DNA from: Patescibacteria group bacterium
Lineage (GTDB): Bacteria > Patescibacteriota > SICC01
Assembly (NCBI GenBank): GCA_040902515.1
Contig: JBBDXB010000006.1
Coordinates: 130,219-194,218, forward strand
Direction of reading: 5' to 3'
DNA length: 64,000 nt
Of the stretch, positions 1,394 to 18,200 are shown piece by piece. Made by a program: the position numbers and the translations under genes. Below the pieces are notes generated by a model. It did not search any database and was not told the origin of the DNA. It worked only from the letters and a program-made list of their open reading frames with translations. Position 1 is the stretch's first letter; every line of letters starts with the position of its first letter.

Positions 1394-2035
1394 TCAGCGG
1401 CCGCGGCGCTCGGCCTGTGCCGGCACCCCGGCACTGTCTTGTCGATCGGACGTATCCCTGGCGTCACCCCTGGACGGTGTCGTCGGAGGAACGCCGTCGC
1501 CTTTCCCATTGTCGCTGCCACCCCGCTGTTCGACCCGTTGACCCGCGCGCTCGAGCCCCTGCCGGGAAACATCGATGGCCCGCTGGACCGCCTCCTGGGC
1601 CTGCTCGGGTACGCGCTCAAGGACATCGCCAAGGACGGCCTGCTGCCGTTCGAGATTGGTCGTGAGCAGCGCTTGCAGTTCCTCCACGTCCTTGCCGTCG
1701 GACGCCATCTCCGAGATCTTCTCCTCGGCCTTCTGGCGAGCCTCCTCCAGCCGGTCCAGCGCTTCTTCGATCCTGTCGGCCGGTGCCTGGTCGGCGACCA
1801 GGGTCTCGACTTCGTCCAGCTTCGCATCCGCTATGCGTAGATGCGCCCGGGCCTTGCTTTCGTCACGAAACGCCGCGGCTACTTCGATCGATTCCGTCGC
1901 CTGTTTGACCGGATAGAGGGCATCCCCGGGGGCGGCGCCAGCGGAAACGGCGGCCGCGGCGCCGCCACCTGCCAGCAGACCGGCGATCACCATCACCGCG
2001 GCGACAGGCACGAAACCTCGCTGGCCGACTTTCAT
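1394..2035 (-). CDS. secreted/membrane-anchored DUF5667-like protein
   Basis: N-terminal hydrophobic anchor, then the LYPVKQATE motif typical of DUF5667, then a charged coiled-coil-like remainder. Confidence 0.55.
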   Translation of the reverse strand: MKVGQRGFVPVAAVMVIAGLLAGGGAAAAVSAGAAPGDALYPVKQATESIEVAAAFRDESKARAHLRIADAKLDEVETLVADQAPADRIEEALDRLEEARQKAEEKISEMASDGKDVEELQALLTTNLERQQAVLGDVLERVPEQAQEAVQRAIDVSRQGLERAGQRVEQRGGSDNGKGDGVPPTTPSRGDARDTSDRQDSAGVPAQAERRGR

Positions 2036-2089
2036 GCCGCCATCCTAGCATCCGGCGATTACAGGGGCAACGCGGCCGGAGACGGTGAG

Positions 2090-2815
2090 CTACCTATGGG
2101 CCGAGGCTGACCACCTGATCCAGAGTGACCCGGGCAAGCTCGGCCAATCCGCCACACGATCCGGATACCGTCCCGACTCGACCGAGTCGTACACGTTGAA
2201 CGGGTCCCACCGTTCGGCCCGGCGGGTCTGCGGAGACCGGCGGCCGAGCACACAGAAATGGAGATGGTCACCCGTGTACGTTGTGTACGCCTCGCCGCTC
2301 GACCAGTCTTCGTATGAACGCCGGCCGATTCCCATGCCGGTCATACCGGCCCGGCCGATCCGCTCGCCGGCTGATACCCGCTTGGCGCGGATGCTCCTGC
2401 CGTACTCGCTGACCGGCGCGGCGAGATGGGTCGGCATCAGGTCGCCGCGCTCGTCGCTCGTCGGCGCATAGTACGGGATGCCTCCCTCGACTGAATCGAG
2501 GTGCGCGTACTGCGTGTAACGCCCGGGCTTGTGCCAGATCTGCACCACTAGCCCGACGCCGAACCAGATCGGCTCGCCATCATGCCGCCGCGGTTCGTCG
2601 CCGTCCCTGAGTTGGTATTCCTGGAAGGTGGCGATCGCCAGGCCGCCGGCGGCGGCCAGCACCGGCGTGCCCCTGGATGCGTCGAAGTCAATGGCTCCGT
2701 GGCGTTCGACCCCGTGGACCCGCTTCTCCGTCTCCGAATACTCCCAGCCGGTCGCGATCTCTGGCTCAAACCCTGCTTCGAAGAGCGGGCTTAGGAATGG
2801 CTTGGGTGCGGGCAT
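2090..2815 (-). CDS. M23 family (LytM) metallopeptidase
   Basis: HGAIDFDA...GTPVLAAAGG...YAHLDSV...GDHLHF: HxxxD and HxH zinc motifs of peptidase M23. Confidence 0.8.
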   Translation of the reverse strand: MPAPKPFLSPLFEAGFEPEIATGWEYSETEKRVHGVERHGAIDFDASRGTPVLAAAGGLAIATFQEYQLRDGDEPRRHDGEPIWFGVGLVVQIWHKPGRYTQYAHLDSVEGGIPYYAPTSDERGDLMPTHLAAPVSEYGRSIRAKRVSAGERIGRAGMTGMGIGRRSYEDWSSGEAYTTYTGDHLHFCVLGRRSPQTRRAERWDPFNVYDSVESGRYPDRVADWPSLPGSLWIRWSASAHR

Positions 2816-3033
2816 GGCTCACGACATTGTATCATCGTGGCCATTTGTCCGATTGCTTCGTTGCACCCATCGATTACGAGCCCTTTCGACCTGAACTTCC
2901 CAGGTCTCGTCAGGCGCTATGCGCAAGGGCACTTCACGCTGGGTCTGGGTCTCTTGCGAGTCAGTCTTGGTGGACGAATCCAAGCGCGTGAAGTTATGTA
3001 CGTCCGCGGGTCAAACATCAGCCGTCGGTGTGG

Positions 3034-3285
3034 CTATCGCCGTGGTGGTCGGGACTGCCGTGCACGAGAGCCCATGTAGGAGAGGAAAATCGCCGCAAGG
3101 AAAGTGAGGGCGAGTGGCCACATGTACACCGCATCGTCTGTCCTCATCAATAGGCTGATGAAGACAGCACCAAGCACGGCGTTTGCGATGCCCACAATCG
3201 TAATCAAGCTCATGACGTACTTCTCCTTCGTTTCGGAGTCAGGACAATACTGCTGTGAAAGAGCCAGGGGCGGAGCTCCTTGCAC
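3034..3285 (-). CDS. small hypothetical membrane protein
   Basis: Two predicted TM helices. Lies in a lower-GC patch. The start is probably internal (MSLITIVG). Weak support. Confidence 0.3.
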   Translation of the reverse strand: MQGAPPLALSQQYCPDSETKEKYVMSLITIVGIANAVLGAVFISLLMRTDDAVYMWPLALTFLAAIFLSYMGSRARQSRPPRR

Positions 3286-3446
3286 TATGCAATGCTCCGG
3301 GGGCTAGAGCCTATTTGAAATCTTCGAGGGTTTTTTCGAGCTCATCCGGTTTGATAACCTGGCCGATGCCATAGTAGCTCATTACGTCCGATTCCAAAGC
3401 GGTGTAATCGATTCCGAAACGTGGCATATCCCAGGCATATGGATCA

Positions 3447-3965
3447 TCACCTAGAAGCGTACGCGGAACGCTTGGCCGGCTTTCTTGACTGAGCCTGCTT
3501 AGCGCGCTCGTTATTCCGAATCATCCGCTTAGCCTGAGTCACAATCGCCCGGTCCTCAGTGTAGTCGAGAAAATCGAATCTTTTCTTGATGTCTATCCAG
3601 CGCGCCTCGGATATTTCACGATTCTTCTTCCGCAACGTGCCGCCTTTATATTTCATTAAGAACCAGTGCACATCAGCGAGCCTCTGTTGCTTGCCTTTTC
3701 GTGAGGGCAGATAGGAGTACCGGCTGATGTACTTCACCAAATCGGCGTTAACCCCTGTTTCTTCCTTAACCTCCCGGATCGCTGTCTTCTGGATATCTTC
3801 GTCTCGTTCGACGTGCCCCTTGGGCAGACTCCAATCATTCATTTGGTTTCGGTGGACCACCAACAGCTCGTACGATCCGTTTCGTTTGCGATATACAATT
3901 CCGCCAGCGGAGTGCTCTAGCTTAATTGAGACCTTTTTTGAATCTATCTGTCGTAGTGCCCTCAT
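3447..3965 (-). CDS. NUDIX hydrolase
   Basis: Nudix box GHVERDEDIQKTAIREVKEETG. Noticeably lower GC than the bulk of the window. Confidence 0.8.
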   Translation of the reverse strand: MRALRQIDSKKVSIKLEHSAGGIVYRKRNGSYELLVVHRNQMNDWSLPKGHVERDEDIQKTAIREVKEETGVNADLVKYISRYSYLPSRKGKQQRLADVHWFLMKYKGGTLRKKNREISEARWIDIKKRFDFLDYTEDRAIVTQAKRMIRNNERAKQAQSRKPAKRSAYASR

Positions 3966-4303
3966 AGACTCAAATATAGCTGAGGCGACTCTTCAACGGG
4001 CCAGAATGGCCTTTTATCTCATTCTGCGCAGCTTCGTGCAGTCCTGGCTCTACGGCCTGCAACATTTCCCAATCTTGCGGCTCAAGTAACACCAACATCG
4101 TCGTGATCGTCTTTTCAGTGTCATCCGGAACGTGGATGCGGTTTCGCGCAGCTTCGCTTCTTGCGTAATCTTCAATGCCTAACACGGTTCTTCATCTCTG
4201 CCACAATCAAGCAAATCTCTAAACCAAACGTTGATGCTCTTAGAGGAACTGAGTTGTAGTGACGGGCCTTTAGGCACGGAATGGGACAGTCTAAAAGGCA
4301 CCG

Positions 4304-4951
4304 CTAGCTCCTGGGAATGAATCGCTTGGCCGCGTCGTCCTTCAGCTGCACCGATTGCTCCAGGTCGAATGTATCATTCAGCGCCTGCTTCACGAGCCAG
4401 TAGCCCGCGCGATACCCGGCCCACTTGCCGAACGGACCGTCGAAGAACCACTCCGCGTGGTTGTATTGCTCGTTATCCCACTGCTGCTCGATCTGCCGCC
4501 AGACTTTCGGGGCGAGAGCCGGTCCGGTAATCCACGGCGCCTGCCAGCCGGACTGGATCCCCGCGAACCAGCACGCCATACCCTCGGTCACCAACGCCCG
4601 CCCCAGCGTTTGGCCGTATCCCCCGTTCTGCCAGCGGGTCAGGTGGTGGAGCTCATGGGCAATGGCGTCAATTAACGGCGGCTCGTCCGTCGGCCATTCT
4701 TCGACCGCAACAAACGCTTCGTGCGCATTAGGGGAATATCCGCCCGGATACCTACCCTCGATCGTCGCTTCCGAAATATCCCTGACGTAAAGCGTCTGCC
4801 GATCGTCCTTAATCTGAGGAGCAATCGCCTTCCAAATATCGGCTACTTTCGTGGGAAGCTTCGGCTGGGTGTCACCCTGCAAATTCACACACAAAGCCAG
4901 CAAGACCTTGCCCTGCGCCGAAAAGTCCATGGTCGTATATGAATCAGGCAC
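4304..4951 (-). CDS. putative Zn-dependent peptidase (HExxH, DUF2268-like)
   Basis: 215 aa with AHELHH (HExxH) and a predicted-Zn-protease-like architecture. Same strand and about 200 bp downstream of the RiPP precursor gene. Confidence 0.5.
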   Translation of the reverse strand: MPDSYTTMDFSAQGKVLLALCVNLQGDTQPKLPTKVADIWKAIAPQIKDDRQTLYVRDISEATIEGRYPGGYSPNAHEAFVAVEEWPTDEPPLIDAIAHELHHLTRWQNGGYGQTLGRALVTEGMACWFAGIQSGWQAPWITGPALAPKVWRQIEQQWDNEQYNHAEWFFDGPFGKWAGYRAGYWLVKQALNDTFDLEQSVQLKDDAAKRFIPRS

Positions 4952-5155
4952 ATGTACAAGATAGACCTAGTGCACAGCAAATAAAAACAGCCACACCTAA
5001 TGGGTAGCTGTTCCCGTTTCGACCGAAACTTCCTCGGTCTCATCAGACGCTAAGCGTGACGGGCCCGACATGATCCTGTGATGTTGCGTAAGCAACCAGG
5101 ACCATGCCGGGTATTAGCGAGGTTAGCTAGAATAAGCTCGCTATTTCTCCCTTGT

Positions 5156-5401
5156 TCAGGGCGCGAGCGGTGACGATGGAACAGTTCCGACACCGAGCGG
5201 TGCTCGACTGCATCGGGAGCTCTGCGCGAATCCACTCGATTGACCAGACCCCTGGCAGCCACCGCAGTTGCCGCCACCGCAGTTGCCACCGCAGTTCGGG
5301 CCACCGCACATCGGCCCAGGCTCTCCACCGCCACAACTGCCATTGCCGGCTATCCCGGCACGAGTAGCGGGGCGCTGACGAACGCTGACTGTAATATCCA
5401 T
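5156..5401 (-). CDS. TOMM/LAP precursor peptide (Cys/Gly-rich, heterocycloanthracin-like core)
   Basis: RBS AAGGAGG lies 5 nt upstream of ATG (5399-5401); a GTG at 5405-5407 is an alternative start. Peptide: MDITVSVRQRPATRAGIAGNGS-CGGGEPGPMCGGPNCGGNCGGGNCGGCQGSGQSSG-FAQSSRCSRAPLGVGTVPSSPLAP. It starts 7-13 nt after the YcaO stop. Confidence 0.7.
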   Translation of the reverse strand: MDITVSVRQRPATRAGIAGNGSCGGGEPGPMCGGPNCGGNCGGGNCGGCQGSGQSSGFAQSSRCSRAPLGVGTVPSSPLAP

Positions 5402-5413
5402 GTTCACCTCCTT

Positions 5414-7234
5414 TCAGGCGAACGGATGAGGTGTGGTGGGCCCGTAGTCAGAGAAGTCAATTCTCCTGCCCAACACGCGATCATCGATTTGTATTGTTTC
5501 GCCGGCGCGCGACATTCCGTACGGCTCCTGATCATAGCCAAAGGTAATCGGCAAGAGTCCAGGGATGAACGCCCGGACGACATGGAGACCCTCAGAAAGC
5601 GGCAGCGTCAAATCGACTACCACCGGCTCCGAGACCACCGAACCGATCTGCGACAACTTGCCCACGTGGCCATGGACATCCTGCAGATCAGTCAGTTCCG
5701 TTGAGCTGTGAAGGAACGCGGCACCTTCAGCAACCGTGCTGTCAGTATACAGCTTCTGATGGTCAGTCGCCGAATGCACATCCTCCAACTGTATCTCTTC
5801 TTCTGGCTGGAAGAGATCACCACCCCACAAGACCGAACCGGCCTCGTAAAGCGCTTTTCGAGCAGCGCTCTCTGCGTCAAAGGCACACCCACTACCGAGA
5901 ATGAGTGTCCGCTTGGTATGGACGGCGCAGAGAATCACCGGCAACGTCTCGAGCGTCAGATTGACGAAATCAGCACTGTAGCCGACTTGGTTCAACCTCT
6001 CTAGCCACGGGCTGAACTCCTCTGGAAGTGATTCCGCACTGATGCGCTCACGCGAAACCCGTTGCAGCCAGGTCCACATATACGCATCACGCTCAATGAC
6101 CTCAAAAACCGCTCGCTTTATCGCCTCGTCGTAAGACGTATGTGCGGCAATGCCCGAGCTATTCGAAGCCGCTAGACTACTTCCAGGAAACGGGAACAGC
6201 GTCAGCTCGGCGGGGACCCAGCGAGCGGAACCACTCAACGTCTTCCCCTCGATCCAATGGTACGGACGTGAGGGCTCGTATTTGTGCAGAGATAAGTTGG
6301 ACCGGTACTGACGCTCATTGAACTTAATCAACGATCGAGGGTCGCACACCGGAGCTGGCAACTCACCCTCGGTTCCGGATTGGAGCTGACGCTCCGCTAC
6401 CTCCCCACTTACGAAACGCTCAGTAGCCTCGGCATAGGCGATGACGCGAGCCTCAGCTGCCGTGGATGCCAGCCCCATACAGGCCGCGTCCTTATGATCC
6501 TCAGCGAAAAGCAGGTTCGGACACGCATACTTGCTACTGCAGAGGTGAACGCCCAGCGACCGCGAAAGGTCACTCGTATTCACAACCGTGTACCGAACGA
6601 TGCCCAACCGGGAATCATTTTGCCACCCTCGCAGAACTTTGTTTCGCTCTATCGAGGTGACTTTGAGATCAGGAAGGTCGACTACGTGAACCATATCCTC
6701 ATCCCATTCCTGCGACTGCTCAACCACCTGCGCCAAGAGGGCTCTCGGGGGCTGGTCACCGACCACGGTGACTTCCTCGCTTCCGGCACAATAGCCGTAG
6801 GCATACAACCGCTCCTCCGGCTCGATGTTGGCGATGAACGCCCTCACTGCGCGTTTGGTAAGCGCAGCATCGGCTCCGACTGGCAACACCAGCACCTCCT
6901 CGGCCGTAGTAACGAACCGAGAGACCTTGTTATTGCCCACCAGCCGAACTATGGCGTCTCCGAGGGGGGTCACCTCATCCGGCAGTGGTTCTTCGGAGCT
7001 GCGACCTTCCCGGATGAATCCCGCATCGAGTAGCGCTGTGGTTAACTGAGCTTCTTTCTGGGAATCAAGTCCGATCGACTGTAATGCGTCAAACCCTGAT
7101 TTGAAGAGTTTCAGCATCTTCATCTTGCTGTCATGAGGGAGGTTGAACTTCAGTCGACTAGTCGACTCTGGTGAAATGAACACCAAACCCTCCCCCGTCA
7201 CACCGCACAGGTGCGACAACGGCAGGATATACAT
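5414..7234 (-). CDS. YcaO-domain cyclodehydratase (TOMM 'D' protein) with about 230-aa N-terminal extension
   Basis: Hallmark YcaO motifs: SNSSGIAAHTSYDEAIKRAVFEVIERDAYMW and GSGCAFDAESAARKALYEAGS. 606 aa. The start sits 1 nt after the SagB stop, suggesting translational coupling. Confidence 0.85.
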   Translation of the reverse strand: MYILPLSHLCGVTGEGLVFISPESTSRLKFNLPHDSKMKMLKLFKSGFDALQSIGLDSQKEAQLTTALLDAGFIREGRSSEEPLPDEVTPLGDAIVRLVGNNKVSRFVTTAEEVLVLPVGADAALTKRAVRAFIANIEPEERLYAYGYCAGSEEVTVVGDQPPRALLAQVVEQSQEWDEDMVHVVDLPDLKVTSIERNKVLRGWQNDSRLGIVRYTVVNTSDLSRSLGVHLCSSKYACPNLLFAEDHKDAACMGLASTAAEARVIAYAEATERFVSGEVAERQLQSGTEGELPAPVCDPRSLIKFNERQYRSNLSLHKYEPSRPYHWIEGKTLSGSARWVPAELTLFPFPGSSLAASNSSGIAAHTSYDEAIKRAVFEVIERDAYMWTWLQRVSRERISAESLPEEFSPWLERLNQVGYSADFVNLTLETLPVILCAVHTKRTLILGSGCAFDAESAARKALYEAGSVLWGGDLFQPEEEIQLEDVHSATDHQKLYTDSTVAEGAAFLHSSTELTDLQDVHGHVGKLSQIGSVVSEPVVVDLTLPLSEGLHVVRAFIPGLLPITFGYDQEPYGMSRAGETIQIDDRVLGRRIDFSDYGPTTPHPFA

Positions 7235-7235
7235 A

Positions 7236-8186
7236 TCAACCTCCAGTAATGATGGTTAGTAATGGAACAACCTCCTCGGACAGCTCGAGAAATTCCTGAG
7301 TCTCTCGGTCGAGGAACCCCCCGATCGGGCGCATCTTCACACCCAGCTCCGCTGCAGCCAGCATGGCATTCTGCATCGCCGCACCAGCCTCGAGGAGTAC
7401 GTACCGATAGGCCCGGTTACCATACTTCTGGGCACTTCGGTCCAGGTCGGCCGAGATAAAAATTACAACCTGGCCCTGACTGAGCAGCTCGTCAGTCGGT
7501 TCGGCGTTCAGCATGATGGTGAAAACATCCTGCTTGGCCGGGTTGACCGACTGAAGCATCCCGGTCTCTACGTTGAACCACCAGAGACCCCGATTCAGGC
7601 CGTCGATCTGACCGTGTGCGGCCACGTGGATGACTAGCGGATAAAGAGCGCCGCCAGAAGGGACAGTCCGGTGTCCGCTCTCGGTAAACCCGTACGTGGC
7701 ACGGACGATTCCAGATAGCGATTGAAGCGTCAGCTTGGTTCCAGAGTCCTCCGGATACGCCGACGACCTTTGCGCAAGCAGACGCGCCAGCTCTAGGCCT
7801 GAATCGGGAGTCTCCAGCACCTTGCCGGCATTACTCGGCTCCCAACGAGGCGCCGCCGTGATGGCAGCAATTTCCTCATCGGTACGAGGCTCAAAGAACG
7901 GATTTTCTCCGTTTGAGCTGGCCCGGTGAAAGAAGCGGAACGCCTGAGTGCAATCAGCGACCACACCCAACTGCTTAAGCTTTTTAAGAAGCTCGAGAAT
8001 ATCCTCTCGCTCCCCAGGCCACTGACTGAGAATATCATCCGACATCCTGGTTCCGTCGCAAAGCTCCAGAACCTGCTCAGCCAAACCGACCTCGTTGCCC
8101 TCGAGCACTACCTCTACTGCTCCCGACTGAAGGACAAGCTTGCCGTCTTCATGCCGGACTACCGCCAGAAGCAGCGGCCGATTCAT
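7236..8186 (-). CDS. SagB-type FMN-dependent dehydrogenase (TOMM 'B' protein, nitroreductase fold)
   Basis: PSGGALYP signature of SagB/McbC-type dehydrogenases and a nitroreductase-like C-terminus (RYVLLEAGAAMQNAMLAAAELGVKMRPIGGF). Strong RBS AAGGAGG before the ATG. Confidence 0.85.
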   Translation of the reverse strand: MNRPLLLAVVRHEDGKLVLQSGAVEVVLEGNEVGLAEQVLELCDGTRMSDDILSQWPGEREDILELLKKLKQLGVVADCTQAFRFFHRASSNGENPFFEPRTDEEIAAITAAPRWEPSNAGKVLETPDSGLELARLLAQRSSAYPEDSGTKLTLQSLSGIVRATYGFTESGHRTVPSGGALYPLVIHVAAHGQIDGLNRGLWWFNVETGMLQSVNPAKQDVFTIMLNAEPTDELLSQGQVVIFISADLDRSAQKYGNRAYRYVLLEAGAAMQNAMLAAAELGVKMRPIGGFLDRETQEFLELSEEVVPLLTIITGG

Positions 8187-8224
8187 AATGACCTCCTTGT
8201 TCTATTTCCTATGAATTAAAGAAC

Positions 8225-8262
8225 AGCGGAGAATTATAGCACTTTCCCAGCCAGGACAATTG
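8225..8262 (-). promoter_or_regulatory. sigma70-like extended -10 promoter of the SagB-YcaO-precursor operon
   Basis: Minus strand reads ...ccaattgtcctggctgggaaagTGcTATAATtctccgctg... (extended -10 TGnTATAAT at 8233-8241, weak -35 TTGTCC) about 45 nt upstream of the SagB RBS and ATG. Confidence 0.5.
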
Positions 8263-8356
8263 GTACATTCCGACGAACTCACCAACCTCGGTCGGGTTGG
8301 GAACTGGCTTTTCCGTGCTATTGCGAGGTTTTCGCGCATCGGTTCCAGTCTGTGGC

Positions 8357-9181
8357 TCACTCACTAAAGTACCGGACTGCTGCTTCTGGATCCTCCGCAC
8401 GCATGAGATGCTCACCGATCAGGACTCCGTCCACGCCGGCGTTACGGAGTTCCGACAAAAGCGCCCGCGACGCTTCGTCCACCTGGAAGCCGCTTTCCGT
8501 TACCACCAACGTCCCGTCAGGAACCTCGCCGAGCAACGTTGCCGTGAGTCCTGTGTCGGTCGTGAGTTCCGGGTCGCGCAGATTCCGGTTGTTCACTCCG
8601 ATGATCTTGGGTCGAACGGCCACGGCGCGTTCCAGTTCTTCGGCGTCGTGTACTTCGACTAGGACATCAAGCCCGATTGAGTCCGCATACTCACTCAGTC
8701 GCGAAAGCTCATCGTCTTCAAGCGCTCCCACGATCAGCAATGCGGCATCGGCGCCGGCTGCCTTTGCCTCAAGAAGCTGATAGTGGTCAGTGATGAAGTC
8801 CTTCCGCAACAAGGGCAGGTCGGTCACCTCCCGGCCTTTCCGGAGGTGATCGAGCGAACCCCCGAAACGGGTCTCCTCCGTGAGTAGCGAAATAGCCCGA
8901 GCCCCGCCCCATTCGTAGGCGGCAATGGTCTCCACGACTCCCCAGTCTTCCCGAATCATCCCTCTGCTTGGAGATCGACGCTTGTGCTCCGCAATGACCG
9001 ACAACCCGGGACGACCCAGGGCGTCCGCGAAAGACCCTTCCCGATTCCGCCAGCGCTCCGCCTTGGCGAACAGCTCCGACTCCCCGACCTCGCGTTTTCG
9101 GACCATTGCTTGTTCGCGCGACGATGCCGAGAGTTTCTCAAGTATGGGGACGGGCTTTTCCATGGCAAACCAGCGTATCAC
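8357..9181 (-). CDS. trpC: indole-3-glycerol phosphate synthase
   Basis: IAEHKRRSPSRG...LLRKDF...GADAALLI...VLVEVH...IGVNNRNL: classic IGPS motifs. Confidence 0.85.
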   Translation of the reverse strand: MIRWFAMEKPVPILEKLSASSREQAMVRKREVGESELFAKAERWRNREGSFADALGRPGLSVIAEHKRRSPSRGMIREDWGVVETIAAYEWGGARAISLLTEETRFGGSLDHLRKGREVTDLPLLRKDFITDHYQLLEAKAAGADAALLIVGALEDDELSRLSEYADSIGLDVLVEVHDAEELERAVAVRPKIIGVNNRNLRDPELTTDTGLTATLLGEVPDGTLVVTESGFQVDEASRALLSELRNAGVDGVLIGEHLMRAEDPEAAVRYFSE

Positions 9182-9400
9182 GCCCCGCCGGTAACTCGAC
9201 AGATATCCAGATTAGTAATGCTCCCCAGTCGGGTCTGGAACCTTTACGGCTAGACCATTGAAACGTTTTCAGTGTCTCACAATTCGAACCGATCAGGCAT
9301 GGAATGGGACAAATGGAACGCCATGATTGCTGAGTGAGGTGAGATACGAGCAAGTTCGCCAGTCTCAGAAAATCGACTATGGCCTAGACCCTGCTCACCT

Positions 9401-9430
9401 TTTACACAAAACACTCCCTAACTGTATAAT
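9401..9430 (+). promoter_or_regulatory. strong sigma70-like promoter giving a near-leaderless helicase transcript
   Basis: -35 TTTACA (9401-9406), 18-nt spacer, extended -10 TGTATAAT (9423-9430). The ATG is at 9439, only about 8 nt after the -10, so there is no room for an SD. Confidence 0.5.
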
Positions 9431-9438
9431 AGCGCGCT

Positions 9439-11892
9439 ATGAACAAGTCAGAGCCACGAGAACATGAAGTTGATTATACCGAGGTTTTTACCGATAGTCT
9501 TATTAATCCCGAAGTAGCGCCGGAATTAGACCAGGTACAGGAAGATTGTTTAAGAGAAATCGCATACGCACGTGATCAAGGGGAGCAGCGTGCATTAGTT
9601 GTGCTCGCATCCGGCATGGGTAAAACAAGAATTGCCGCGAAAGACGTGTCTAATTTCTTTATCGAAAACCCTAATAGTCGCGTATTGTACCTGTGCCACC
9701 AGAACGAGATACTCAGGCAGGCTGAGCAAGAATTTCGCGGAGTCCTCGGATCCCCTCATAGCTACGGCCAGTTTGCCGGACATGAAAAGGAGTTTGATGA
9801 AGTCAACTGCCTATTCGCTTCTTTCCAGACTATGCGAGATTGGAAGGATGCGTTCCTACCGGAAGAGTTTGACTACATTATAGTCGACGAGGGTCATCAC
9901 AGCGCTGCCAAAACATATCAACCAGTCTTGGAATATTTTAATCCGCGGTTCGCCCTCGGTTTAACTGCGACCCCTGATCGTGGCGATCTCAAGGACATCC
10001 GAGCGATTTTCGGACCTGAACGTTACTCTATGCCACTTGAAGAGGCATTAGCAGAAGGACACCTGGCTCGAATAGACTACCGTCTAATGGCTGATGAAAT
10101 CGATTGGGATGAAGTCCGGAAAGCAGCAGAAGGCCATGTAACAATGGCAGATCTTAATCGACGAGTATTCATTGAACACCGAGATGAAGAAATCGTCGGA
10201 GTAATAGACAAACACCGGGCAGAGCTAGATGGGGCAAAAGTCATGGTCTTCTGCCCTTCAATCGCTTACTGCGATCGTTTGGCGGAAGTAATGCCCGATG
10301 CCGTGACAATTCATTCGGCATTATCGGCCGGAGAGCAGCGTTTGAAACTTGAAGATTTTCGAAGTGGTCTAATCAATACAGTAGTAACTGTTGATAAATT
10401 CAATGAGGGCATAGACATCCCCGATGCGAATTTAGTTGTTTTTCTACGATCCACCGCGTCTAAGAACATATTCATCCAACAGCTCGGACGTGGCTTACGC
10501 AAGACACCTGAAAAGCAAGGGGTGCGTATTCTTGATTTTGTAAATAATCTTGAGCGCATGGAGCTCATCGACGAACTATGGCGAGATGTCACCGAACGAT
10601 ACCGGCGCATGCACGGCACAGCAGAACAAGAAGCGCTCGTTGTGGATATTGGAACCGTAAGCTTCGAAGAAATCAACAAAGACCTTCAGGAGGTTTTGGA
10701 ACTGCTCAGACAGGGTTACACCAAGGAAAAACTTGTGGGCCAACTGCTCGCTTTAGCCGAAGAGTTAGGTAAATCACCATCAATCCCAGATATTCGACGA
10801 GCCCAAGAAGAGAAGCGCTGCGCAAGCCCGGGCACGTTCGCCAGGCATTTTGGCTCTTATAACAAGGCGCTCGAAGCGGCCGGTCTGGAGTCACGTGCGA
10901 AGCCACCTTCATACACAACTGAAGAACTAGTCCAACAGCTCACTAACCTCGCTAATGAGCTGGGGGTTACTCCCCTGGTCAGCGATATCGATAGCGCACA
11001 TGAAGAAGGAATATGTGCTAGTACCGATGTCTTTCGGTCACGCTTTGGCTCACTACGACAAGCTCGCGAGGCGGCTGAACTAGAGGCGACTGAGTGGAGA
11101 AGGTACTCAGATCACGAGTTGCTGGAACAACTTACTCAGCTTACGGAGGAACTCGGTCATGCCCCTACGAGTAGTGACATTAACCGAGCTTTCGATGAAG
11201 GTAGGACTGCAAGTATCGACACCTTTCATCGTCGGTTCGGGACACTGGCAGAAGCCCACAAGATTGCGAGGGTCTTCGATAAACGCACTCACCGACTCAG
11301 TGATCAGCAACTACTTAGTCAGCTCAAGCAGTTGCATGAAGTAGAAGGGCGTCCGCTAAACCGCGTTGACCTCGCTGAAGCACGTCGTGAAGGTCGAGGC
11401 CCGAGTCCCCAATTGCTTGTGAAACGATTTGGCTCGACACCGGAGGCGCTACGTCGAGCAGGTATTCCTCTACGCATCCCGGCACACCGGAAATTTGGAA
11501 CAACAGAGTTCACCGAGGAAGATCTTATCCAGCGACTCGTGGCCTATAGCGAGGAGTTGGGACGAGTCCCAAGTCAAAGCGAGTTGGTTGATGCGTCAAA
11601 ACAAGGAAAGTGTCCCAATGCTTCGGTCTTCGCCAGACACTTTGGAACATACAATAAAGCAGTTAAGGCAGCTGGCCTGAAACCAGTTGCGGAGAAACCA
11701 AGTTACACAGACGATGAGCTGCTTGAGCAGTTGCGTAGCCTTGCAAAAGAACTTGGTTCTATTCCCACTAAGAACCAAGTCAAGGAACTTTCTAAACGGG
11801 GAAAGTGCGCGACCAGCACAACTTTTATTAAAAGGTTCGGCACATTTGAAGAAGCGCTACAACTCGCAGACATTCATCTGAAAGACTCTTGA
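9439..11892 (+). CDS. SF2 DExH-box helicase (ResIII-like) fused to 7 tandem homing-endonuclease-associated repeats (HEAR)
   Basis: Walker A LASGMGKT, motif II DEGHH, and helicase C-terminal motifs (QQLGRGLR). These are followed by seven roughly 55-aa repeats of the form E(E/Q)LLxQLxxLAxELGxxP...D...G.....T....FGSxxxALxxAGL. Lower GC than the surrounding genes. Confidence 0.8.
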   Translation: MNKSEPREHEVDYTEVFTDSLINPEVAPELDQVQEDCLREIAYARDQGEQRALVVLASGMGKTRIAAKDVSNFFIENPNSRVLYLCHQNEILRQAEQEFRGVLGSPHSYGQFAGHEKEFDEVNCLFASFQTMRDWKDAFLPEEFDYIIVDEGHHSAAKTYQPVLEYFNPRFALGLTATPDRGDLKDIRAIFGPERYSMPLEEALAEGHLARIDYRLMADEIDWDEVRKAAEGHVTMADLNRRVFIEHRDEEIVGVIDKHRAELDGAKVMVFCPSIAYCDRLAEVMPDAVTIHSALSAGEQRLKLEDFRSGLINTVVTVDKFNEGIDIPDANLVVFLRSTASKNIFIQQLGRGLRKTPEKQGVRILDFVNNLERMELIDELWRDVTERYRRMHGTAEQEALVVDIGTVSFEEINKDLQEVLELLRQGYTKEKLVGQLLALAEELGKSPSIPDIRRAQEEKRCASPGTFARHFGSYNKALEAAGLESRAKPPSYTTEELVQQLTNLANELGVTPLVSDIDSAHEEGICASTDVFRSRFGSLRQAREAAELEATEWRRYSDHELLEQLTQLTEELGHAPTSSDINRAFDEGRTASIDTFHRRFGTLAEAHKIARVFDKRTHRLSDQQLLSQLKQLHEVEGRPLNRVDLAEARREGRGPSPQLLVKRFGSTPEALRRAGIPLRIPAHRKFGTTEFTEEDLIQRLVAYSEELGRVPSQSELVDASKQGKCPNASVFARHFGTYNKAVKAAGLKPVAEKPSYTDDELLEQLRSLAKELGSIPTKNQVKELSKRGKCATSTTFIKRFGTFEEALQLADIHLKDS

Positions 11893-12469
11893 AAAGTCTA
11901 GTGGAGTTGCAACACAGACAAGCAAACTTTCTCGAAAGAAGGATTAGTCGGGTTGGGAACCCTCTTTTCGAGGCCGCTTTGGGCTTTCTTAACCTTCACC
12001 CCTAAGCATGCTCGGGTTGGTGACTGGATTGCGGATTATTCGCGACCGTTGAGAGATTTCTTGAGCTGGTTCTACACCGTCCCTATTGGCTCCGGGTCTG
12101 GGACAACGTTAGAACCTACTTCAAAAGCACAGCAGCGGTTCGTTCGTAGAGCTTCGCTACGGCTTCTCCGTTTTGAACACGGTGATTAAACTCCGTCAGC
12201 GTTTCGCCATTCAGCTGATCATATAGTGTGTCGTACATCAAAACAGCCAGGAGCGGCTCCCACCGATCCCGCGAATATGCCGACTCAAGTGCACCCATTG
12301 AACAACGCGCCTTTCCATGACTGCTCATACCGCTAACTCGCCAGCCATAGGTTCGTATATAGAGCGCGGCCTTCCGGAAGATTTTGGCTGACCGACTTTT
12401 TAACGGTGGTGAAATCATGACTTGATTACATGGCATAGCGTCGTAGTTTATTAATGTTGCTTGCTCCGG

Positions 12470-12543
12470 GACAGGGATTCGAACCCCGATTACCAGATTC
12501 AGAGTCTGGCGTCCTACCATTAGACGATCCCGGAATGGGCCGT
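12470..12543 (-). tRNA. tRNA-Gln (CTG)
   Basis: Cloverleaf: acceptor TCCGGGA/TCCCGGA, anticodon stem CCAGA/TCTGG, loop CTCTGAA, T-loop GGTTCGAATCC. Confidence 0.8.
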
Positions 12544-12583: not shown

Positions 12584-13402
12584 TCAGCTGCGGTCGAGGG
12601 CCGGATCCAGCTCCACGTCTTCCAGTTTGAACGCGAGCATCTGCCCCTGGAAGTCAGGATAGTGGTCGATCCACCACCACACGGCCTCATTCTTGCCCTC
12701 CGCCGCGAGTGCGGGAATGGCGTCATCGACCCAAACCAACGCATGTCCGTCACGGAAATCCTGCTCGTCTCCGTCACGGTCCGGCGCCATCGGGATACTG
12801 ACTCCCTCCCAAGCCGTCCGGACCCACTCGGGCGGGCGGCCTTCTTCCGGAGCCGTGACGACGGTAAAGTACGACCAGCCACTACGGCGGGCCCGTTCCA
12901 GACTGCTCGCCTCCGGGTTCTTGAGAGACCTCCACAGGTCTGCCAAGCGGGCCTCGGTTTCGCCAAGGTCGGTGTGTAGCCAGGAATCATGGGCTTCCTT
13001 CGCCAGCCGGTCCAGGAAGCCTTCCTTGAAGGAACGGCCCTCGTCGCCGGTAAGCAGCCGGGGATTCCTGGCCATGCGGGCGCGGGAACCCTCGCGGTAC
13101 TGCACGAACCGTTCGTTCTCCTCGATCCAACGCGCGACGACCTCGTCCAATCTCCATTCATAACTGGATGGATCAATACCCTGGAGTTGGTCGGTCAGTT
13201 CTGCACGGCCGATGCCGTCAAGCACGGCCACCTTGTCCGAAAGTTCCAGCCCGCCGAAGAATTCCAGGAAACGCTCCCGTTCATCGGGATCCTCGTGCGT
13301 CGGATGGAACGTCCCGCCGTCCGGTGATGTTACGGCGTGCCGTCCCTCGGTCGCCGTATCCCGACTGATTCCGAAGCTGACCCTAGGTTCGGTGTCACTC
13401 AT
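12584..13402 (-). CDS. hypothetical protein
   Basis: 272 aa acidic protein with coding-like periodicity and no recognisable motif. 4-nt overlap with the downstream HAD gene. Confidence 0.5.
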   Translation of the reverse strand: MSDTEPRVSFGISRDTATEGRHAVTSPDGGTFHPTHEDPDERERFLEFFGGLELSDKVAVLDGIGRAELTDQLQGIDPSSYEWRLDEVVARWIEENERFVQYREGSRARMARNPRLLTGDEGRSFKEGFLDRLAKEAHDSWLHTDLGETEARLADLWRSLKNPEASSLERARRSGWSYFTVVTAPEEGRPPEWVRTAWEGVSIPMAPDRDGDEQDFRDGHALVWVDDAIPALAAEGKNEAVWWWIDHYPDFQGQMLAFKLEDVELDPALDRS

Positions 13403-16779: not shown

Positions 16780-17754
16780 TCAATGTTCCCGTTCGCGGTA
16801 CTTCCGGAAGTCGCTGACCGCATCGGTCAGCAGGCGATCGAGCAGTTCCGTGAACCGTACCCCGGCCGCCTCCATGAGCTTCGGGTACACGCTGGTCTTC
16901 GTGAACCCGGGAATCGTGTTCACCTCGCTGACGAGGGCACGGTCGTCCTCGACGAAGAAGTCGATCCGGGCCATGCCGCTGCAACCGGTCGACCGGAATA
17001 CGCGAAGCGCCAGGTCGCGGAGCTCAGTGGCGCGTACCGCCGGCAGTTCCGCCGGAACACTGAGCTTCATCCCGCCTTCCGTGTACTTGGCCTCGTAGTC
17101 ATACCAGTCCGCTCCCTGCAGAACGATCTCGCCGGGCGGCGAGGCGACCAGGTCGCTCGTACCGAGCACCGCCACTTCGACCTCCCGTCCGGCCGAGGCC
17201 GCCTCGACCAGCACCACGGAATCGTGACGGAACGCTTCCGCGAGCGCCGCTTCGAGTTCGTCATCGGTAGCGGCCTTGCTGATGCCCACCGACGATCCCA
17301 GCCGCGACGGCTTCACGAAGACCGGCCAGCCGAGTTCGGCGATCCGCTGCCGGTCGTCGGCCTCGACCGGATGCCGGAGCGTCACGTACCGCACCTGCGG
17401 GATGTCGTGATGCGCCATCCACTCCTTGAACACCGCCTTGTCCATGCAGGTCGCGGAGGCGTGCAGGCCGCTGCCGACGTAGGCGACGTCGAGCAGTTCC
17501 AGCATGCCTTGGATCGTGCCGTCCTCGCCGTAGGGGCCGTGCAGGACCGGGAAAACGGCGTCCGCGCCGAGTAATCCCTTGCCGGGCCGGATCGGCACCT
17601 CCTTGCCGCCGTGCCGCCACGTGCCGTCCTTCCCGACCTCAACGTAGTGGACTTCGTGACCGGCCTCGCGCAAGCCTTCACGGACCGACTTCGCCGATTC
17701 CAGCGAGACCTCGTGCTCACTGGAACGACCGCCGCCGAGGACCACTACCTTCAT
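16780..17754 (-). CDS. ddl: D-alanine--D-alanine ligase
   Basis: MKVVVLGGGRSSEHEVSL...GEDGT(I)QG...ATP-grasp motifs. Start taken at MKVVVL. Confidence 0.85.
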   Translation of the reverse strand: MKVVVLGGGRSSEHEVSLESAKSVREGLREAGHEVHYVEVGKDGTWRHGGKEVPIRPGKGLLGADAVFPVLHGPYGEDGTIQGMLELLDVAYVGSGLHASATCMDKAVFKEWMAHHDIPQVRYVTLRHPVEADDRQRIAELGWPVFVKPSRLGSSVGISKAATDDELEAALAEAFRHDSVVLVEAASAGREVEVAVLGTSDLVASPPGEIVLQGADWYDYEAKYTEGGMKLSVPAELPAVRATELRDLALRVFRSTGCSGMARIDFFVEDDRALVSEVNTIPGFTKTSVYPKLMEAAGVRFTELLDRLLTDAVSDFRKYREREH

Positions 17755-17775
17755 GTGCCCCAGTATAACGCGCTG

Positions 17776-17849
17776 CGCGCCCGGAAGGATTCGAACCTCC
17801 GACACCCTGCTCCGAAGGCAGGTGCTCTAATCCGCTGAGCTACGGGCGC
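17776..17849 (-). tRNA. tRNA-Arg (TCG)
   Basis: Acceptor GCGCCCG/CGGGCGC, anticodon stem CCTGC/GCAGG with loop CTTCGGA. Confidence 0.7.
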
Positions 17850-17858
17850 ATAAGTTTA

Positions 17859-18200
17859 TTATACGTCCTCGATTAAACGTTCGAACGTTCTTACTCGATG
17901 ACAGTTCGCGCATACCAGTTCGCATTTACTAATTTCGCGATCGAGCAATGCCCGATTATTCATCATAGCCAACCTGCTAACTAGTATTTCCTTGTCTCCG
18001 AGATGGTCGAAATCCATAACGTAGTACGGATATGTCTTCTTGCAATCAGCACAAGGGATTGAATTCTTTAGCTCTCTGAGATGCTTTCGCAACTCTTCTC
18101 GCCGCCTTCGATTCTTCTTGAGATATGTATCACGGTTGGCATAGTAATGATTCCGTATTGCAGCACGTCGCTTCTCAATATCTTTATACGGCATAGTCAT
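17859..18200 (-). CDS. HNH endonuclease
   Basis: CADC...MDFDHLGDKEILVSRLAMMNNRAL...CELVCANCHR: HNH His-Me finger with two CxxC pairs. AT-rich relative to neighbours. Immediately downstream of tRNA-Arg(TCG). Confidence 0.75.
   Translation of the reverse strand: MTMPYKDIEKRRAAIRNHYYANRDTYLKKNRRRREELRKHLRELKNSIPCADCKKTYPYYVMDFDHLGDKEILVSRLAMMNNRALLDREISKCELVCANCHRVRTFERLIEDV

What the first reader, a model, noticed from the sequence alone, without database searches (positions are those of the whole stretch)
9200..12543. Lower-GC genomic islet inserted at the 3' end of tRNA-Gln carrying a helicase-HEAR fusion
The 3.3-kb stretch from about 9200 to 12460 is visibly AT-richer and ends exactly at the 3' end of tRNA-Gln(CTG), which is the classic island integration point. 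It encodes one large protein (9439-11892) plus degenerate small ORFs. No integrase is present, so it may be a remnant. A weak partial copy of the tRNA 3' end (attcgaacc-gat) occurs at about 9283, near the other boundary.
Basis: partly seen in the sequence, partly recalled or inferred. Interest (0 to 1): 0.55.

Follow-up and report, generated by a model that had tools for sequence, protein, structure and literature searches.

The report
tRNA-Gln-anchored gene cassette array
The AT-rich stretch next to tRNA-Gln is real foreign DNA, but it is the newest end of a roughly 10-kb array of small swappable gene cassettes in an ultra-small (Patescibacteria) bacterium, each closed by a short repeat that mimics the tRNA's 3' end and with no integrase nearby.

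Summary
Window 9200-12462 has GC 0.49 against 0.63 elsewhere (z = -6.7) and stops at the 3' end of tRNA-Gln(CTG). It encodes an intact SF2 helicase with six HEAR repeats, and no integrase.

The "degenerate ORFs" are an intact DUF6197 gene and a conserved non-coding module.

Ten relatives were compared. All share the backbone up to tRNA-Gln, lose homology exactly after ...CCCGGAGC(A/C), and carry different low-GC cargo. That cargo includes PD-Lambda-1/SNIPE, a type II R-M system, toxin-antitoxin pairs, rhomboid and heliorhodopsin.

In about eight of these genomes, the window included, the cargo is divided by 20-30-nt direct repeats related to the tRNA 3' end. The repeats lie only on the tRNA strand, just after stop codons.

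Three units recur in different positions in different genomes: ORF172, DUF6197 and the non-coding module. Each keeps its own 3' repeat. The helicase unit is flanked by a 16-nt copy pair of one repeat.

My reading is a tRNA-anchored, integron-like or tandem-accretion cassette array, about 12462 down to 2025-3300, served by an unidentified recombinase. Type III hammerhead ribozymes sit inside it. I class it as a new variant of a known kind.

The parts
12463..12534 (-). tRNA-Gln(CTG), the fixed anchor of the array. Homology with all relatives ends 1 nt past its 3' end, at 12462.
   Evidence: ARAGORN. Rfam tRNA 65.6 bits. The sequence is identical in L083, L084 and L091, with 1 SNP in L085. blastn breakpoints fall at 12462.
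12088..12462 (-). DUF6197 cassette. It holds a start motif AAGCAACATTAATAAAC (12446-12462), the gene (12116-12418, 100 aa) and a 3' repeat 'e2', AGGTTCTAACGTTGTCCCAGACCCGGAGCC (12088-12117).
   Evidence: Pfam DUF6197 E 1.8e-7. It is homologous through the gene and e2 to L083 2389-2703, where it follows a different upstream unit. Coordinates.
11946..12087 (-). Conserved non-coding module (AATAGGGACGGTGTAGAACC...), ending in the 5' part of an e1-type repeat, GGGTTCCCAACCCGACT (11946-11962).
   Evidence: 75-80% identical to L091 17011-17163. Its 5' part also occurs at L091 15996-16095. Read on the plus strand, the repeat forms a terminator-like hairpin plus T run 58 nt after the helicase stop.
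9219..11945 (+). Helicase-HEAR unit. It holds the gene 9439-11892 (817 aa, inverted relative to the array), its own promoter TTTACA-18-TATAAT (9401-9430), and a distal repeat 'e1', AAAGGTTCCAGACCCGACTGGGGAGCA (9219-9245, on the minus strand). The unit is flanked by the 16-nt direct repeat AGTCGGGTYKGGAACC (9227-9242 and 11946-11961, 14/16).
   Evidence: Pfam. PADLOC mREase_IV helicase core E 1e-54. PDB SauUSI 7clg E 3e-54. AF2 pLDDT 85. Repeat D8. Promoter. e1 is conserved in L083, L084, L085, L091 and L099.
8286..9218 (-). trpC (IGPS) cassette: gene 8357-9181 and an e1'-type repeat AGTTCCCAACCCGACCGAGG (8286-8305).
   Evidence: Pfam IGPS. Its best relatives are only about 50% identical and come from Clostridia and Spirochaetes. 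GC3 0.68. Repeat. Absent from L083.
5013..8285 (-). Nitroreductase (7236-8186), YcaO (5414-7234) and a 97-aa ORF (5050-5343), followed by type III hammerhead copy a (5013-5065) and a hairpin plus T run.
   Evidence: Pfam. GC3 0.64. Rfam Hammerhead_3 34.4 bits, full-length match. Covariation. No e-type repeat was detected at this unit's end.
3293..4951 (-). DUF2268 (4304-4951), a 71-aa ORF (3970-4185) and NUDIX (3447-3965), then a short e2-like repeat TAGGCTCTAGCCCCCGGAGCA (3293-3313) whose last 9 nt equal the tRNA end.
   Evidence: Pfam. GC3 0.745 and 0.607. Repeat.
2025..3292 (-). Distal, uncertain part of the variable region: a 59-aa ORF (3034-3213), hammerhead copy b (2880-2930) and an M23 peptidase (2090-2815, core-like GC3 0.81). 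Homology with relative L083 resumes at 2024.
   Evidence: blastn. Hammerhead. GC3.

Best explanation
The stretch 9200-12462 is the youngest, tRNA-proximal part of a roughly 9-10-kb array of small mobile units. The array is anchored at the 3' end of tRNA-Gln(CTG) in a high-GC Patescibacteria genome.

Most units are single genes. Each ends in its own 20-30-nt site. There are two related types:
- e2: AGGYTCTAACKTYGTCCCAGACCCGGAGC
- e1: AGGTTCCAGACCCGACTGGKGAGCA

Both resemble the T-loop-to-acceptor end of tRNA-Gln, and both end in GAGC(A/C), as the tRNA does.

Units are inserted, and probably exchanged, by site-specific recombination between such a site and either the tRNA end or another site in the array. 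New units therefore pile up next to the tRNA and older ones are pushed outward. The helicase-HEAR unit entered at the e1-type site of the non-coding module, which left the 16-nt direct repeat that now flanks it. The recombinase is not in or next to the array and must act in trans.

What is shown: the composition, the exact breakpoints, the repeats, and recurrence of the same units in different contexts. What is inferred: the recombination chemistry, the crossover point and the enzyme.

The cargo protein is an SF2 double-strand translocase of the SauUSI/RadD/XPB type. It lacks a nuclease domain and is tethered by six four-helix HEAR repeats. It is expressed from its own near-consensus promoter. 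I take it to be a xenologous copy of a helicase that is widespread in Patescibacteria, and not a restriction enzyme.
For: Composition:
- GC 0.491 against 0.633, z = -6.7.
- GC3 rises with distance from the tRNA: 0.45 and 0.53 for the proximal genes, 0.61-0.75 further out, 0.80-0.90 in the backbone.

Breakpoints:
- L083 (89% nt identity) and L084 (77%) align to the window only down to 12462.
- All ten relatives diverge right after CCCGGAGC(A/C).
- Each carries different cargo.

Repeats:
- The 22-nt e1 is 20-22/22 identical in the window, L083 and L084. Its only hit in the JGI metagenome collection (L085) lies 1.66 kb downstream of a tRNA-Gln.
- GG[CT]TCTAAC occurs once in the 64-kb window counting both strands, once each in L083 and L084, and five times in L085. 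All these copies are on the tRNA strand, just after stop codons.
- 14 of 16 core-regex hits fall in the 20% of the sequence that lies downstream of the tRNA, p = 1e-8.
- The L085 e2a copy matches 20 of 24 tRNA 3'-end positions, apart from a 5-nt loop insertion and a 1-nt deletion.

Recurrence of units:
- The ORF172 unit follows the tRNA in L083 but follows an e1 copy 3.6 kb out in L091. It is 89% identical over 595 columns, and homology ends at GAGC(A/C).
- The DUF6197 unit follows the tRNA in the window but follows e1 in L083.
- The non-coding module occurs in the window and twice in L091.
- Each unit keeps its own 3' repeat.

Other:
- The 16-nt direct repeat flanks the helicase unit.
- Assembly contigs break at the tRNA end in four samples.
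- No recombinase domain appears in any array.
Against: - No recombinase has been identified, and no excised circle or empty site has been observed. The mechanism is therefore inferred.
- The repeats are short and heterogeneous. A combined sequence model recovered only its own training copies, at E 0.002-0.05.
- Several unit boundaries in the distal half of the window array have no detectable repeat (after YcaO/97-aa and after DUF2268).
- The two most distant relatives (L101, L102) show variable cargo but no repeats.
- The repeats always follow stop codons on the coding strand, so an expression role (processing or termination) cannot be excluded.
- All sequences are metagenome assemblies.
- Only 64 kb of this genome was available.
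Confidence: 0.62

Rival explanations
1. This is a classical single genomic island. One integrase-bearing element integrated into tRNA-Gln, then lost its integrase and decayed. The internal repeats are decayed att remnants with no present function.
For: The region sits at a tRNA 3' end, has low GC and lacks an integrase. Partial tRNA copies scattered through tRNA-linked islands are known from other systems (bioRxiv 10.1101/2020.12.28.424599).
Against: e1 is only 13/22 identical to the tRNA end, yet it is 20-22/22 identical among genomes whose coding flanks are only 77-89% identical. That is not neutral decay. The same units occur in different orders in different genomes. None of about ten arrays has an integrase or an integrase fragment within 10 kb. 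Units are mostly single genes of 0.4-1.5 kb.
Confidence: 0.15
2. The repeats are RNA-level or expression signals: tRNA-like processing or termination elements after each gene of a tRNA-led transcription unit. Content variation then arises by ordinary homologous or illegitimate recombination between them, not by a dedicated recombinase.
For: The repeats lie on the coding strand directly after stop codons. Ten of eleven window array genes are co-oriented with the tRNA. Hammerhead ribozymes in the same spacers imply that transcripts are processed. One repeat doubles as a terminator-like hairpin for the helicase.
Against: There is no conserved hairpin or T run across copies. The repeats are absent from the other 50 kb of the window, which holds ten further tRNAs. 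Homology between shared units ends exactly at the repeat end. Repeats of 25-30 nt are poor substrates for homologous recombination (general knowledge).
Confidence: 0.15
3. The DNA is native. The low GC reflects constraints on this particular gene, and the neighbourhood differences are ordinary gene loss.
For: Helicase-HEAR genes have GC 0.49-0.53 in hosts of GC 0.44-0.63. In other Patescibacteria they sit in stable housekeeping contexts.
Against: The closest homologue is only 44% identical. No relative with the same backbone has the gene at this site. The low GC extends to DUF6197 and to non-coding DNA. Breakpoints are exact.
Confidence: 0.03

Closest known systems
tRNA- or tmRNA-anchored islands built by repeated site-specific integration. 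Examples: Prochlorococcus tycheposon islands, Dehalococcoides ssrA islands, and tandem accretion with integrase-less cis-mobilizable elements (CIMEs) in streptococci.
   Same: The target is the 3' end of a tRNA gene. New units are inserted next to the tRNA and push older ones outward. Partial tRNA-like repeats lie between units. Cargo is adaptive or defensive. Strains differ in content. Some units lack an integrase (bioRxiv 10.1101/2020.12.28.424599; PMC3146451 and PMC5704250 were listed, but what I say of them rests on my own knowledge).
   Different: Units here are mostly single genes of 0.4-3 kb. No integrase or integrase fragment was found in any of about ten arrays. The repeats are not plain partial tRNA copies: they form two diverged families that are better conserved among genomes than the neighbouring genes. 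One insertion appears to have occurred at an internal repeat and not at the tRNA.
Chromosomal (sedentary) integron cassette arrays
   Same: An array of mostly co-oriented single-ORF cassettes. Each cassette carries its own recombination site at its 3' end. The same cassette occurs in different positions in different genomes. Toxin-antitoxin cassettes occur within the arrays. One end is fixed.
   Different: There is no adjacent intI. The fixed site is a tRNA 3' end and not attI. The sites are 20-30 nt and conserved in sequence, not 57-141-nt imperfect palindromes with RYYYAAC/GTTRRRY cores. No conserved hairpin was found.
SauUSI-type Type IV restriction endonuclease (PDB 7clg)
   Same: It is the closest relative of the helicase core by sequence (E 3e-54; PADLOC mREase_IV E 1e-54) and by fold (Foldseek E 2e-22).
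   Different: The N-terminal PLD nuclease is missing: the match starts at residue 203 of 953. The C-terminal target-recognition domain is replaced by six HEAR repeats. Without a nuclease the protein cannot be a restriction enzyme on its own.
Type III hammerhead ribozymes (Rfam RF00008)
   Same: The catalytic core CUGANGA...GAAA, a GUC/CUU/CUC cleavage triplet, three helices, and compensatory changes in all three.
   Different: Stem I is minimal: 4 bp closed by a triloop. The score is below the Rfam gathering threshold (34.4 against 48.5). The copies sit in the spacers of a gene-cassette array.

Membership tests
Classical tRNA-linked genomic island | Inserted at the 3' end of a tRNA gene | tested here: met
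   Homology with L083 and L084 stops at window 12462, 1 nt past tRNA-Gln.
Classical tRNA-linked genomic island | Composition deviates from the host genome | tested here: met
   GC 0.491 against 0.633, z = -6.7. GC3 0.45-0.53 against 0.80-0.90.
Classical tRNA-linked genomic island | Presence/absence or content polymorphism among relatives | tested here: met
   Ten related loci have the same backbone and different cargo.
Classical tRNA-linked genomic island | Flanking direct repeat that is a near-exact copy of the tRNA 3' end | tested here: not met
The real boundary repeat e1 (9219-9245) shares only 13/22 positions with the tRNA end. e2 (12088-12117) shares CCCGGAGC.
Classical tRNA-linked genomic island | Integrase gene within the island | tested here: not met
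   Pfam scan of every ORF of 71 aa or more between 2025 and 12462. Recombinase motif regex negative.
Integron | intI tyrosine recombinase adjacent to the attachment site | tested here: not met
   Upstream of the tRNA lie a 272-aa orphan, HAD and an AI-2E transporter. No Phage_integrase domain lies within 10 kb in any array.
Integron | attC sites: imperfect palindromes with RYYYAAC...GTTRRRY cores | tested here: not met
   Folding of 12 spacers shows no conserved hairpin. The sites end in GAGC(A/C) and not in GTTRRRY.
Integron | Array of single-ORF cassettes, each with its own 3' site, with the same cassette found in different positions | tested here: met
   ORF172, DUF6197 and the non-coding module each recur with the same 3' repeat but different upstream neighbours. 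L085 has at least 6 such units.
Tandem-accretion / tycheposon-type tRNA islands | Integrase-carrying elements present at the site in at least some genomes | tested here: inconclusive
   None was seen in about ten arrays, but only 10 kb of flank and few genomes could be examined.
SauUSI-type Type IV restriction enzyme | SF2 helicase/translocase core | tested here: met
   7clg E 3e-54, query residues 10-451. Foldseek E 2e-22. Motifs GxGKT, DEGH, TATP and QxxGRGxR are invariant in 47 homologues.
SauUSI-type Type IV restriction enzyme | N-terminal PLD nuclease and C-terminal SRA-like recognition domain | tested here: not met
   The match begins at chain residue 203 of 953. The helicase starts at query residue about 25. 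The C-terminus is six HEAR repeats.
Pfam PF18780 HNH_repeat (HEAR) | Score above the curated cut-off | tested here: met
   240.1 bits against a cut-off of 26, in six stretches. Each repeat is modelled as four helices, pLDDT about 88.
Hammerhead ribozyme type III (RF00008) | Rfam gathering score | tested here: not met
   34.4 bits against 48.5 for copy a. Copy b was not reported.
Hammerhead ribozyme type III (RF00008) | Conserved catalytic core and three helices supported by covariation | tested here: met
   CUGANGA and GAAA are invariant. 97.8% of cells are paired. Five pairs show compensatory changes across three copies, in all three helices. Slid controls give 18-44%.
Hammerhead ribozyme type III (RF00008) | Self-cleavage | not testable with these tools
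   Needs an in vitro transcription and cleavage assay.

The most novel reading that the evidence does not exclude
This is a gene-capture system in Patescibacteria that has not been described. The 3' end of tRNA-Gln(CTG) acts as the fixed attachment site. Single-gene cassettes carry defence genes, toxin-antitoxin pairs, metabolic genes and this helicase-HEAR. Each cassette has its own 20-30-nt recombination site that mimics a tRNA 3' end. Cassettes are inserted and shuffled at the tRNA end or at internal sites by a recombinase encoded elsewhere in the genome. Hammerhead ribozymes cut the array transcripts. It would be functionally an integron, built from different parts.
Probability: 0.35. Interest if true: 0.75.

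Novelty: new variant of a known kind. Interest (0 to 1): 0.6.

Why it matters
Patescibacteria have tiny genomes, and how they acquire and exchange genes is poorly understood.

This is a fixed tRNA site where single genes are stacked and exchanged through short conserved sites, with no integrase alongside. The genes include phage-defence genes, toxin-antitoxin pairs, and even trpC and a YcaO cluster. Such a site would be a compact route for horizontal gene flow in these organisms. It would also be a second, independently built solution to the problem that integrons solve.

The repeats give a simple sequence handle (GGYTCTAAC..., CCAGACCCGAC...GAGCA). With it the arrays can be found in other metagenomes, and candidate recombinases can be tested.

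The finding also places a widespread but uncharacterised helicase-HEAR family, and minimal hammerhead ribozymes, in a defined mobile context.

Tried and rejected
1. The 9-mer is present but scores at chance level.
2. A genome-contig scan with trpC, looking for close relatives. The best hit was only 50% identical and from unrelated phyla, so it gave no synteny information. It does suggest that trpC itself is foreign.
3. An exact 73-nt tRNA-Gln search in the JGI metagenomes found nothing. A relative there differs by 1 SNP.
4. Viral-contig scans. The tRNA end and e1 gave no hits. The e2 head gave 5 hits, all inside coding-looking sequence and no more than chance would give.
5. One combined sequence model of all repeats (R1) was too weak. 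It recovered only training copies at E 0.002-0.05, with no false hits elsewhere.
6. attC-like folding of the spacers. A strong hairpin occurs only in the window copy (12068-12116) and is not conserved.
7. A regex search for tyrosine- and serine-recombinase motifs in the window and three loci found nothing. This is only a heuristic.
8. PADLOC and PHROGs gave nothing for DUF6197 or for most orphan cassette ORFs.
9. A Foldseek search of the HEAR array against the PDB gave no significant match. The best E was 0.49, with weak resemblance to sigma-factor and TetR helical bundles.
10. tblastn against phage genomes matched only the generic helicase core at 29-35% identity.
11. Rfam on the whole 11.5-kb region reported only the tRNA. 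The hammerhead appeared only in a 121-nt search.
12. No paralogue of the helicase exists in the window.
Full report
**The observation**

ARAGORN places tRNA-Gln(CTG) at 12463-12534 on the minus strand, so the gene's 3' end faces lower coordinates. Rfam confirms it at 65.6 bits. GC falls from 0.60-0.70 to 0.46-0.53 between about 9250 and 12500. The segment 9200-12462 has GC 0.491 and is the lowest 3.26-kb window in the 64 kb. The rest of the window averages 0.633, so z = -6.7. Third-position GC is 0.447 for the large ORF and 0.525 for the small one next to the tRNA. Backbone genes lie at 0.80-0.90.

ORF 9439-11892 (817 aa) carries ResIII and Helicase_C domains plus six PF18780 HNH_repeat (HEAR) units, at 240 bits. 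The "helicase-HEAR fusion" is therefore correct. No ORF in the region has an integrase domain.

Two details do not hold:
- The motif ATTCGAACC-GAT is present at 9282-9293, but 18% of random 100-nt tiles of the window match the tRNA 3' end as well.
- The "degenerate small ORFs" are an intact 100-aa DUF6197 gene (12116-12418, minus strand) and a conserved non-coding module.

**Source and relatives**

The helicase protein is identical to NCBI entries MEX2209582.1 and MEX2429797.1, named "Patescibacteria group bacterium", on a 638,718-bp contig. Two Logan contigs reproduce window 2977-12492 and 9213-12156 exactly.

The orphan 272-aa gene just upstream of the tRNA has only two relatives among 5.8 billion proteins. 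Their contigs are L083 (81% aa identity) and L084 (57%). Both carry HAD, the 272-aa gene and an identical tRNA-Gln. By blastn, L083 aligns to the window at 89% and L084 at 77%, in both cases only down to window 12462. That is 1 nt past the tRNA.

Downstream, both relatives have different low-GC DNA:
- L084 encodes a PD-Lambda-1/SNIPE defence protein (PADLOC E 7e-123).
- L083 encodes a 172-aa orphan and a DUF6197 homologue.

L083 resumes homology with the window only at 2024. Relative to L083, the variable region in the window is therefore about 2025-12462 and not 9200-12462.

Homologues of the AI-2E transporter gave further genomes with the same backbone: tRNA-Pro, Gly, Arg, His, Arg, then Ddl, NAGPA, tRNA-Lys, AI-2E, HAD and tRNA-Gln. 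Each again has different cargo after the tRNA:
- L091 has a type II R-M pair (PADLOC Helicase_II 2.8e-46, MTase_II 1e-29) followed by heliorhodopsin.
- L093 has TauE, MFS and CMAS.
- L098 has an AI-2E paralogue and a ParE toxin-antitoxin pair.
- L099 has orphans and a ParE/YafQ pair.

Contigs from three further samples end 34-161 nt after the tRNA. L001 ends 30 nt inside it. That is what a branching assembly graph at this point would produce.

**The repeats**

A 32-nt stretch at window 9215-9245 is 94% identical to L083 2330-2361, although the DNA around it is unrelated. Its 22-nt core, TTCYAGACCCGACTGGKGAGCA ("e1"), also occurs in L084. Searching the whole JGI metagenome collection for that pattern gave a single hit, L085. 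There it lies 1.66 kb downstream of a tRNA-Gln(CTG) that follows an AI-2E transporter.

A second type, "e2" (AGGYTCTAACKTYGTCCCAGACCCGGAGC), follows the DUF6197 gene in both the window (12088-12117) and L083. It follows several ORFs in L085, L093 and L099.

The 10-mer GG[CT]TCTAAC occurs once in the 64-kb window counting both strands, once each in L083 and L084, and five times in L085. Every one of these copies is on the tRNA strand, right after a stop codon. The single further copy, in L091, is on the other strand but still inside the array. Of 16 hits to a core regex across 213 kb counted on both strands, 14 lie on the tRNA strand within 10.5 kb downstream of tRNA-Gln. That zone is 20% of the search space (p = 1e-8). 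The regex was derived from these copies, so the informative part is their absence elsewhere.

The repeats resemble the tRNA's T-loop-to-acceptor end:
- The L085 copy GGTTCTAACGTCGTCCCTGTCC-GGAGC matches 20 of 24 positions of GGTTCGAATCCCTGTCCCGGAGC, apart from a 5-nt loop insertion and a 1-nt deletion.
- The copy after NUDIX in the window ends in CCCGGAGCA, exactly as the tRNA does.
- e1 shares only 13/22 positions with the tRNA, yet it is 20-22/22 identical between genomes whose genes are 77-89% identical. That argues for constraint or recent spread and not for decay.

No hairpin is conserved across copies, so they are not attC-like.

**Units recur in different contexts**

- The ORF172 unit follows the tRNA directly in L083 (1791-2355). 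In L091 it follows an e1 copy 3.6 kb from the tRNA. The two are 89% identical over 595 columns, with the same start (ATGAAAGAAAAGC). Homology ends exactly at GAGC(A/C).
- The DUF6197 unit follows the tRNA in the window but follows e1 in L083. Homology runs through the gene and e2.
- The non-coding module at window 11946-12087 recurs at L091 17011-17163. Its first part also occurs at L091 15996-16095.
- A start motif AAGCAAC..TAAAC follows the tRNA in the window, e1 in L085 and e2 in L083.

In each case the unit keeps its own 3' repeat while its upstream neighbour varies. That is the logic of an integron cassette.

Read from the tRNA outward, it contains:
- the DUF6197 cassette, 12462-12088;
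- the non-coding module, 12087-11946, ending in GGGTTCCCAACCCGACT;
- the helicase-HEAR unit, 11945-9219, ending in e1 (9245-9219).

The helicase unit is flanked by a 16-nt direct repeat: 9227-9242 and 11946-11961, 14/16 identical. In L091 the same module is followed directly by TTACTATTGAG, and in the window TTACTAATCTGG follows e1. The unit therefore looks inserted into the module's own e1-type site.

The helicase gene is inverted relative to the array. It has its own promoter, TTTACA-18-TATAAT, ending 9 nt before the ATG.

Beyond 9219 the array continues:
- trpC, with an e1'-type repeat at 8286-8305;
- nitroreductase, YcaO and a 97-aa ORF;
- DUF2268 and NUDIX, with a repeat at 3293-3313.

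Some boundaries there have no detectable repeat. GC3 rises roughly with distance from the tRNA. This fits newest-nearest insertion.

**The cargo protein**

The helicase core is closest to the Type IV restriction enzyme SauUSI:
- PDB 7clg, E 3e-54, query residues 10-451 against chain residues 203-642;
- Foldseek E 2e-22;
- PADLOC mREase_IV 1e-54.

RadD and XPB come next. The protein lacks SauUSI's N-terminal nuclease, and HEAR repeats replace the recognition domain.

AlphaFold models are confident (pLDDT 85 and 89). Each HEAR repeat is four helices. The array has no significant PDB relative.

More than 3000 homologues with the same architecture exist, mostly in Patescibacteria. The closest is 44% identical. 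In three other genomes the gene is solitary among housekeeping genes. In two it lies about 350 nt from a tRNA 3' end, and in one it sits beside an rpoD-like sigma factor. Fusions to sigma-70 and RNase III exist. Its GC is 0.49-0.53 in hosts of GC 0.44-0.63.

I infer a nucleic-acid translocase tethered by HEAR repeats, here as a foreign copy. A defence role is possible but unsupported, because no nuclease or partner gene is present.

**Mechanism and comparison with known systems**

The best-supported model is site-specific insertion and exchange of small units at the tRNA-Gln end and at internal repeats, carried out by a recombinase encoded elsewhere. This works like tandem accretion at tRNA or tmRNA genes. 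Tycheposon islands with partial tRNAs are documented in bioRxiv 10.1101/2020.12.28.424599. Dehalococcoides ssrA islands and CIMEs turned up in a literature search, but my description of them rests on my own knowledge. The model also works like a chromosomal integron.

It fails the membership tests for both. No integrase was found in any of about ten arrays, there is no attC structure, and the repeats are not plain tRNA copies. I therefore call it a new variant of a known kind. Text searches found no paper describing HEAR-helicase fusions or integron cassette arrays in Patescibacteria. The recombinase, the crossover point and current activity are all inferred.

**Hammerhead ribozymes**

Two spacers of the window array hold type III hammerhead-like ribozymes, at 5013-5065 and 2880-2930 on the minus strand. 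A third copy in L099 abuts an e1-type repeat.

Copy a matches Rfam Hammerhead_3 over the full model at 34.4 bits, below the gathering score. Across the three copies the catalytic core is invariant and 97.8% of cells pair. Five pairs in all three helices show compensatory changes. Slid controls give 18-44%.

Noticed in passing
window 5013-5065 and 2880-2930 (minus strand); L099 14262-14316; degenerate copy at L085 ~8832-8869: Minimal type III hammerhead ribozymes (4-bp stem I with a triloop) sit in the spacers of the cassette array. Copy a directly follows the 97-aa ORF after YcaO and precedes a terminator-like hairpin. The L099 copy abuts an e1-type repeat. Copy a scores below the Rfam gathering threshold (34.4 against 48.5), but compensatory changes in all three stems support the fold.
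   Followed up: yes
window 5050-9181 (minus strand): The variable array of a Patescibacteria genome contains trpC (IGPS), a nitroreductase, a 606-aa YcaO and a 97-aa ORF, which together look like an azoline/TOMM-type cluster. The best trpC relatives are only about 50% identical and come from Clostridia and Spirochaetes. Biosynthetic genes of this kind are unusual in this phylum.
   Followed up: partly
L084 2566-3978; L091 11946-15416; L085 5190-5722; L098 13562-14057; L099 12417-12955: The same tRNA-Gln site in relatives carries PD-Lambda-1/SNIPE (E 7e-123), a type II R-M system with a Z1/helicase protein, and RelB/YafQ- or ParE-type toxin-antitoxin pairs. The site thus acts as a defence and addiction hot spot.
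   Followed up: partly
L104 4428-7538; L108 5001-7817; L109 5001-8882; proteins P0035, P0106, P0109: Helicase-HEAR homologues in other Patescibacteria are solitary genes. They lie about 350 nt from the 3' end of a tRNA (tRNA-Leu, tRNA-Ser) or next to an rpoD-like sigma-70 gene. Fusions with sigma-70 and with RNase III exist. Gene GC stays at 0.49-0.53 whatever the host GC. This hints at either mobility of the gene or a transcription- or RNA-linked role.
   Followed up: partly
window 11946-12087; L091 15996-16095 and 17011-17163: A non-coding module of about 145 nt is conserved at 75-80% between genomes and behaves like a cassette without a gene. In the window its first 20 nt pair with the preceding e2 repeat to form a long hairpin (12068-12116). 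Its function is unknown; it could be a small RNA or an empty cassette.
   Followed up: partly
window 17751-18260: A second low-GC patch (0.46) lies just upstream of tRNA-Arg(TCG). It holds a 133-aa ORF (17859-18260, minus strand) with paired Cys motifs (CADC...CANCH) that look HNH-like by eye, but it has no Pfam hit at E 0.01.
   Followed up: no
window 12584-13402 (minus strand): The 272-aa gene immediately upstream of tRNA-Gln is an orphan. It has three members among 5.8 billion proteins and no Pfam domain, and its GC3 (0.73) is below the backbone. It is absent from the more distant relatives, where HAD or AI-2E directly precedes the tRNA.
   Followed up: partly
window 12116-12418: The NCBI protein accessions of the helicase (MEX2209582.1) and the 272-aa gene (MEX2209583.1) are consecutive. 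The intact DUF6197 gene between them is therefore apparently not annotated as a CDS in the public record.
   Followed up: no
L001 (window 2977-12492), L002 (window 9213-12156), L095-L097: Independent short-read assemblies break 30 nt inside tRNA-Gln, 34-161 nt after it, or at the e1 repeat (9213). This is consistent with several alternative sequences following these sites in the sampled populations.
   Followed up: partly
window 9401-9439: The helicase-HEAR gene has a near-consensus sigma-70 promoter whose -10 box ends 9 nt before the ATG. This implies a leaderless or nearly leaderless mRNA.
   Followed up: no
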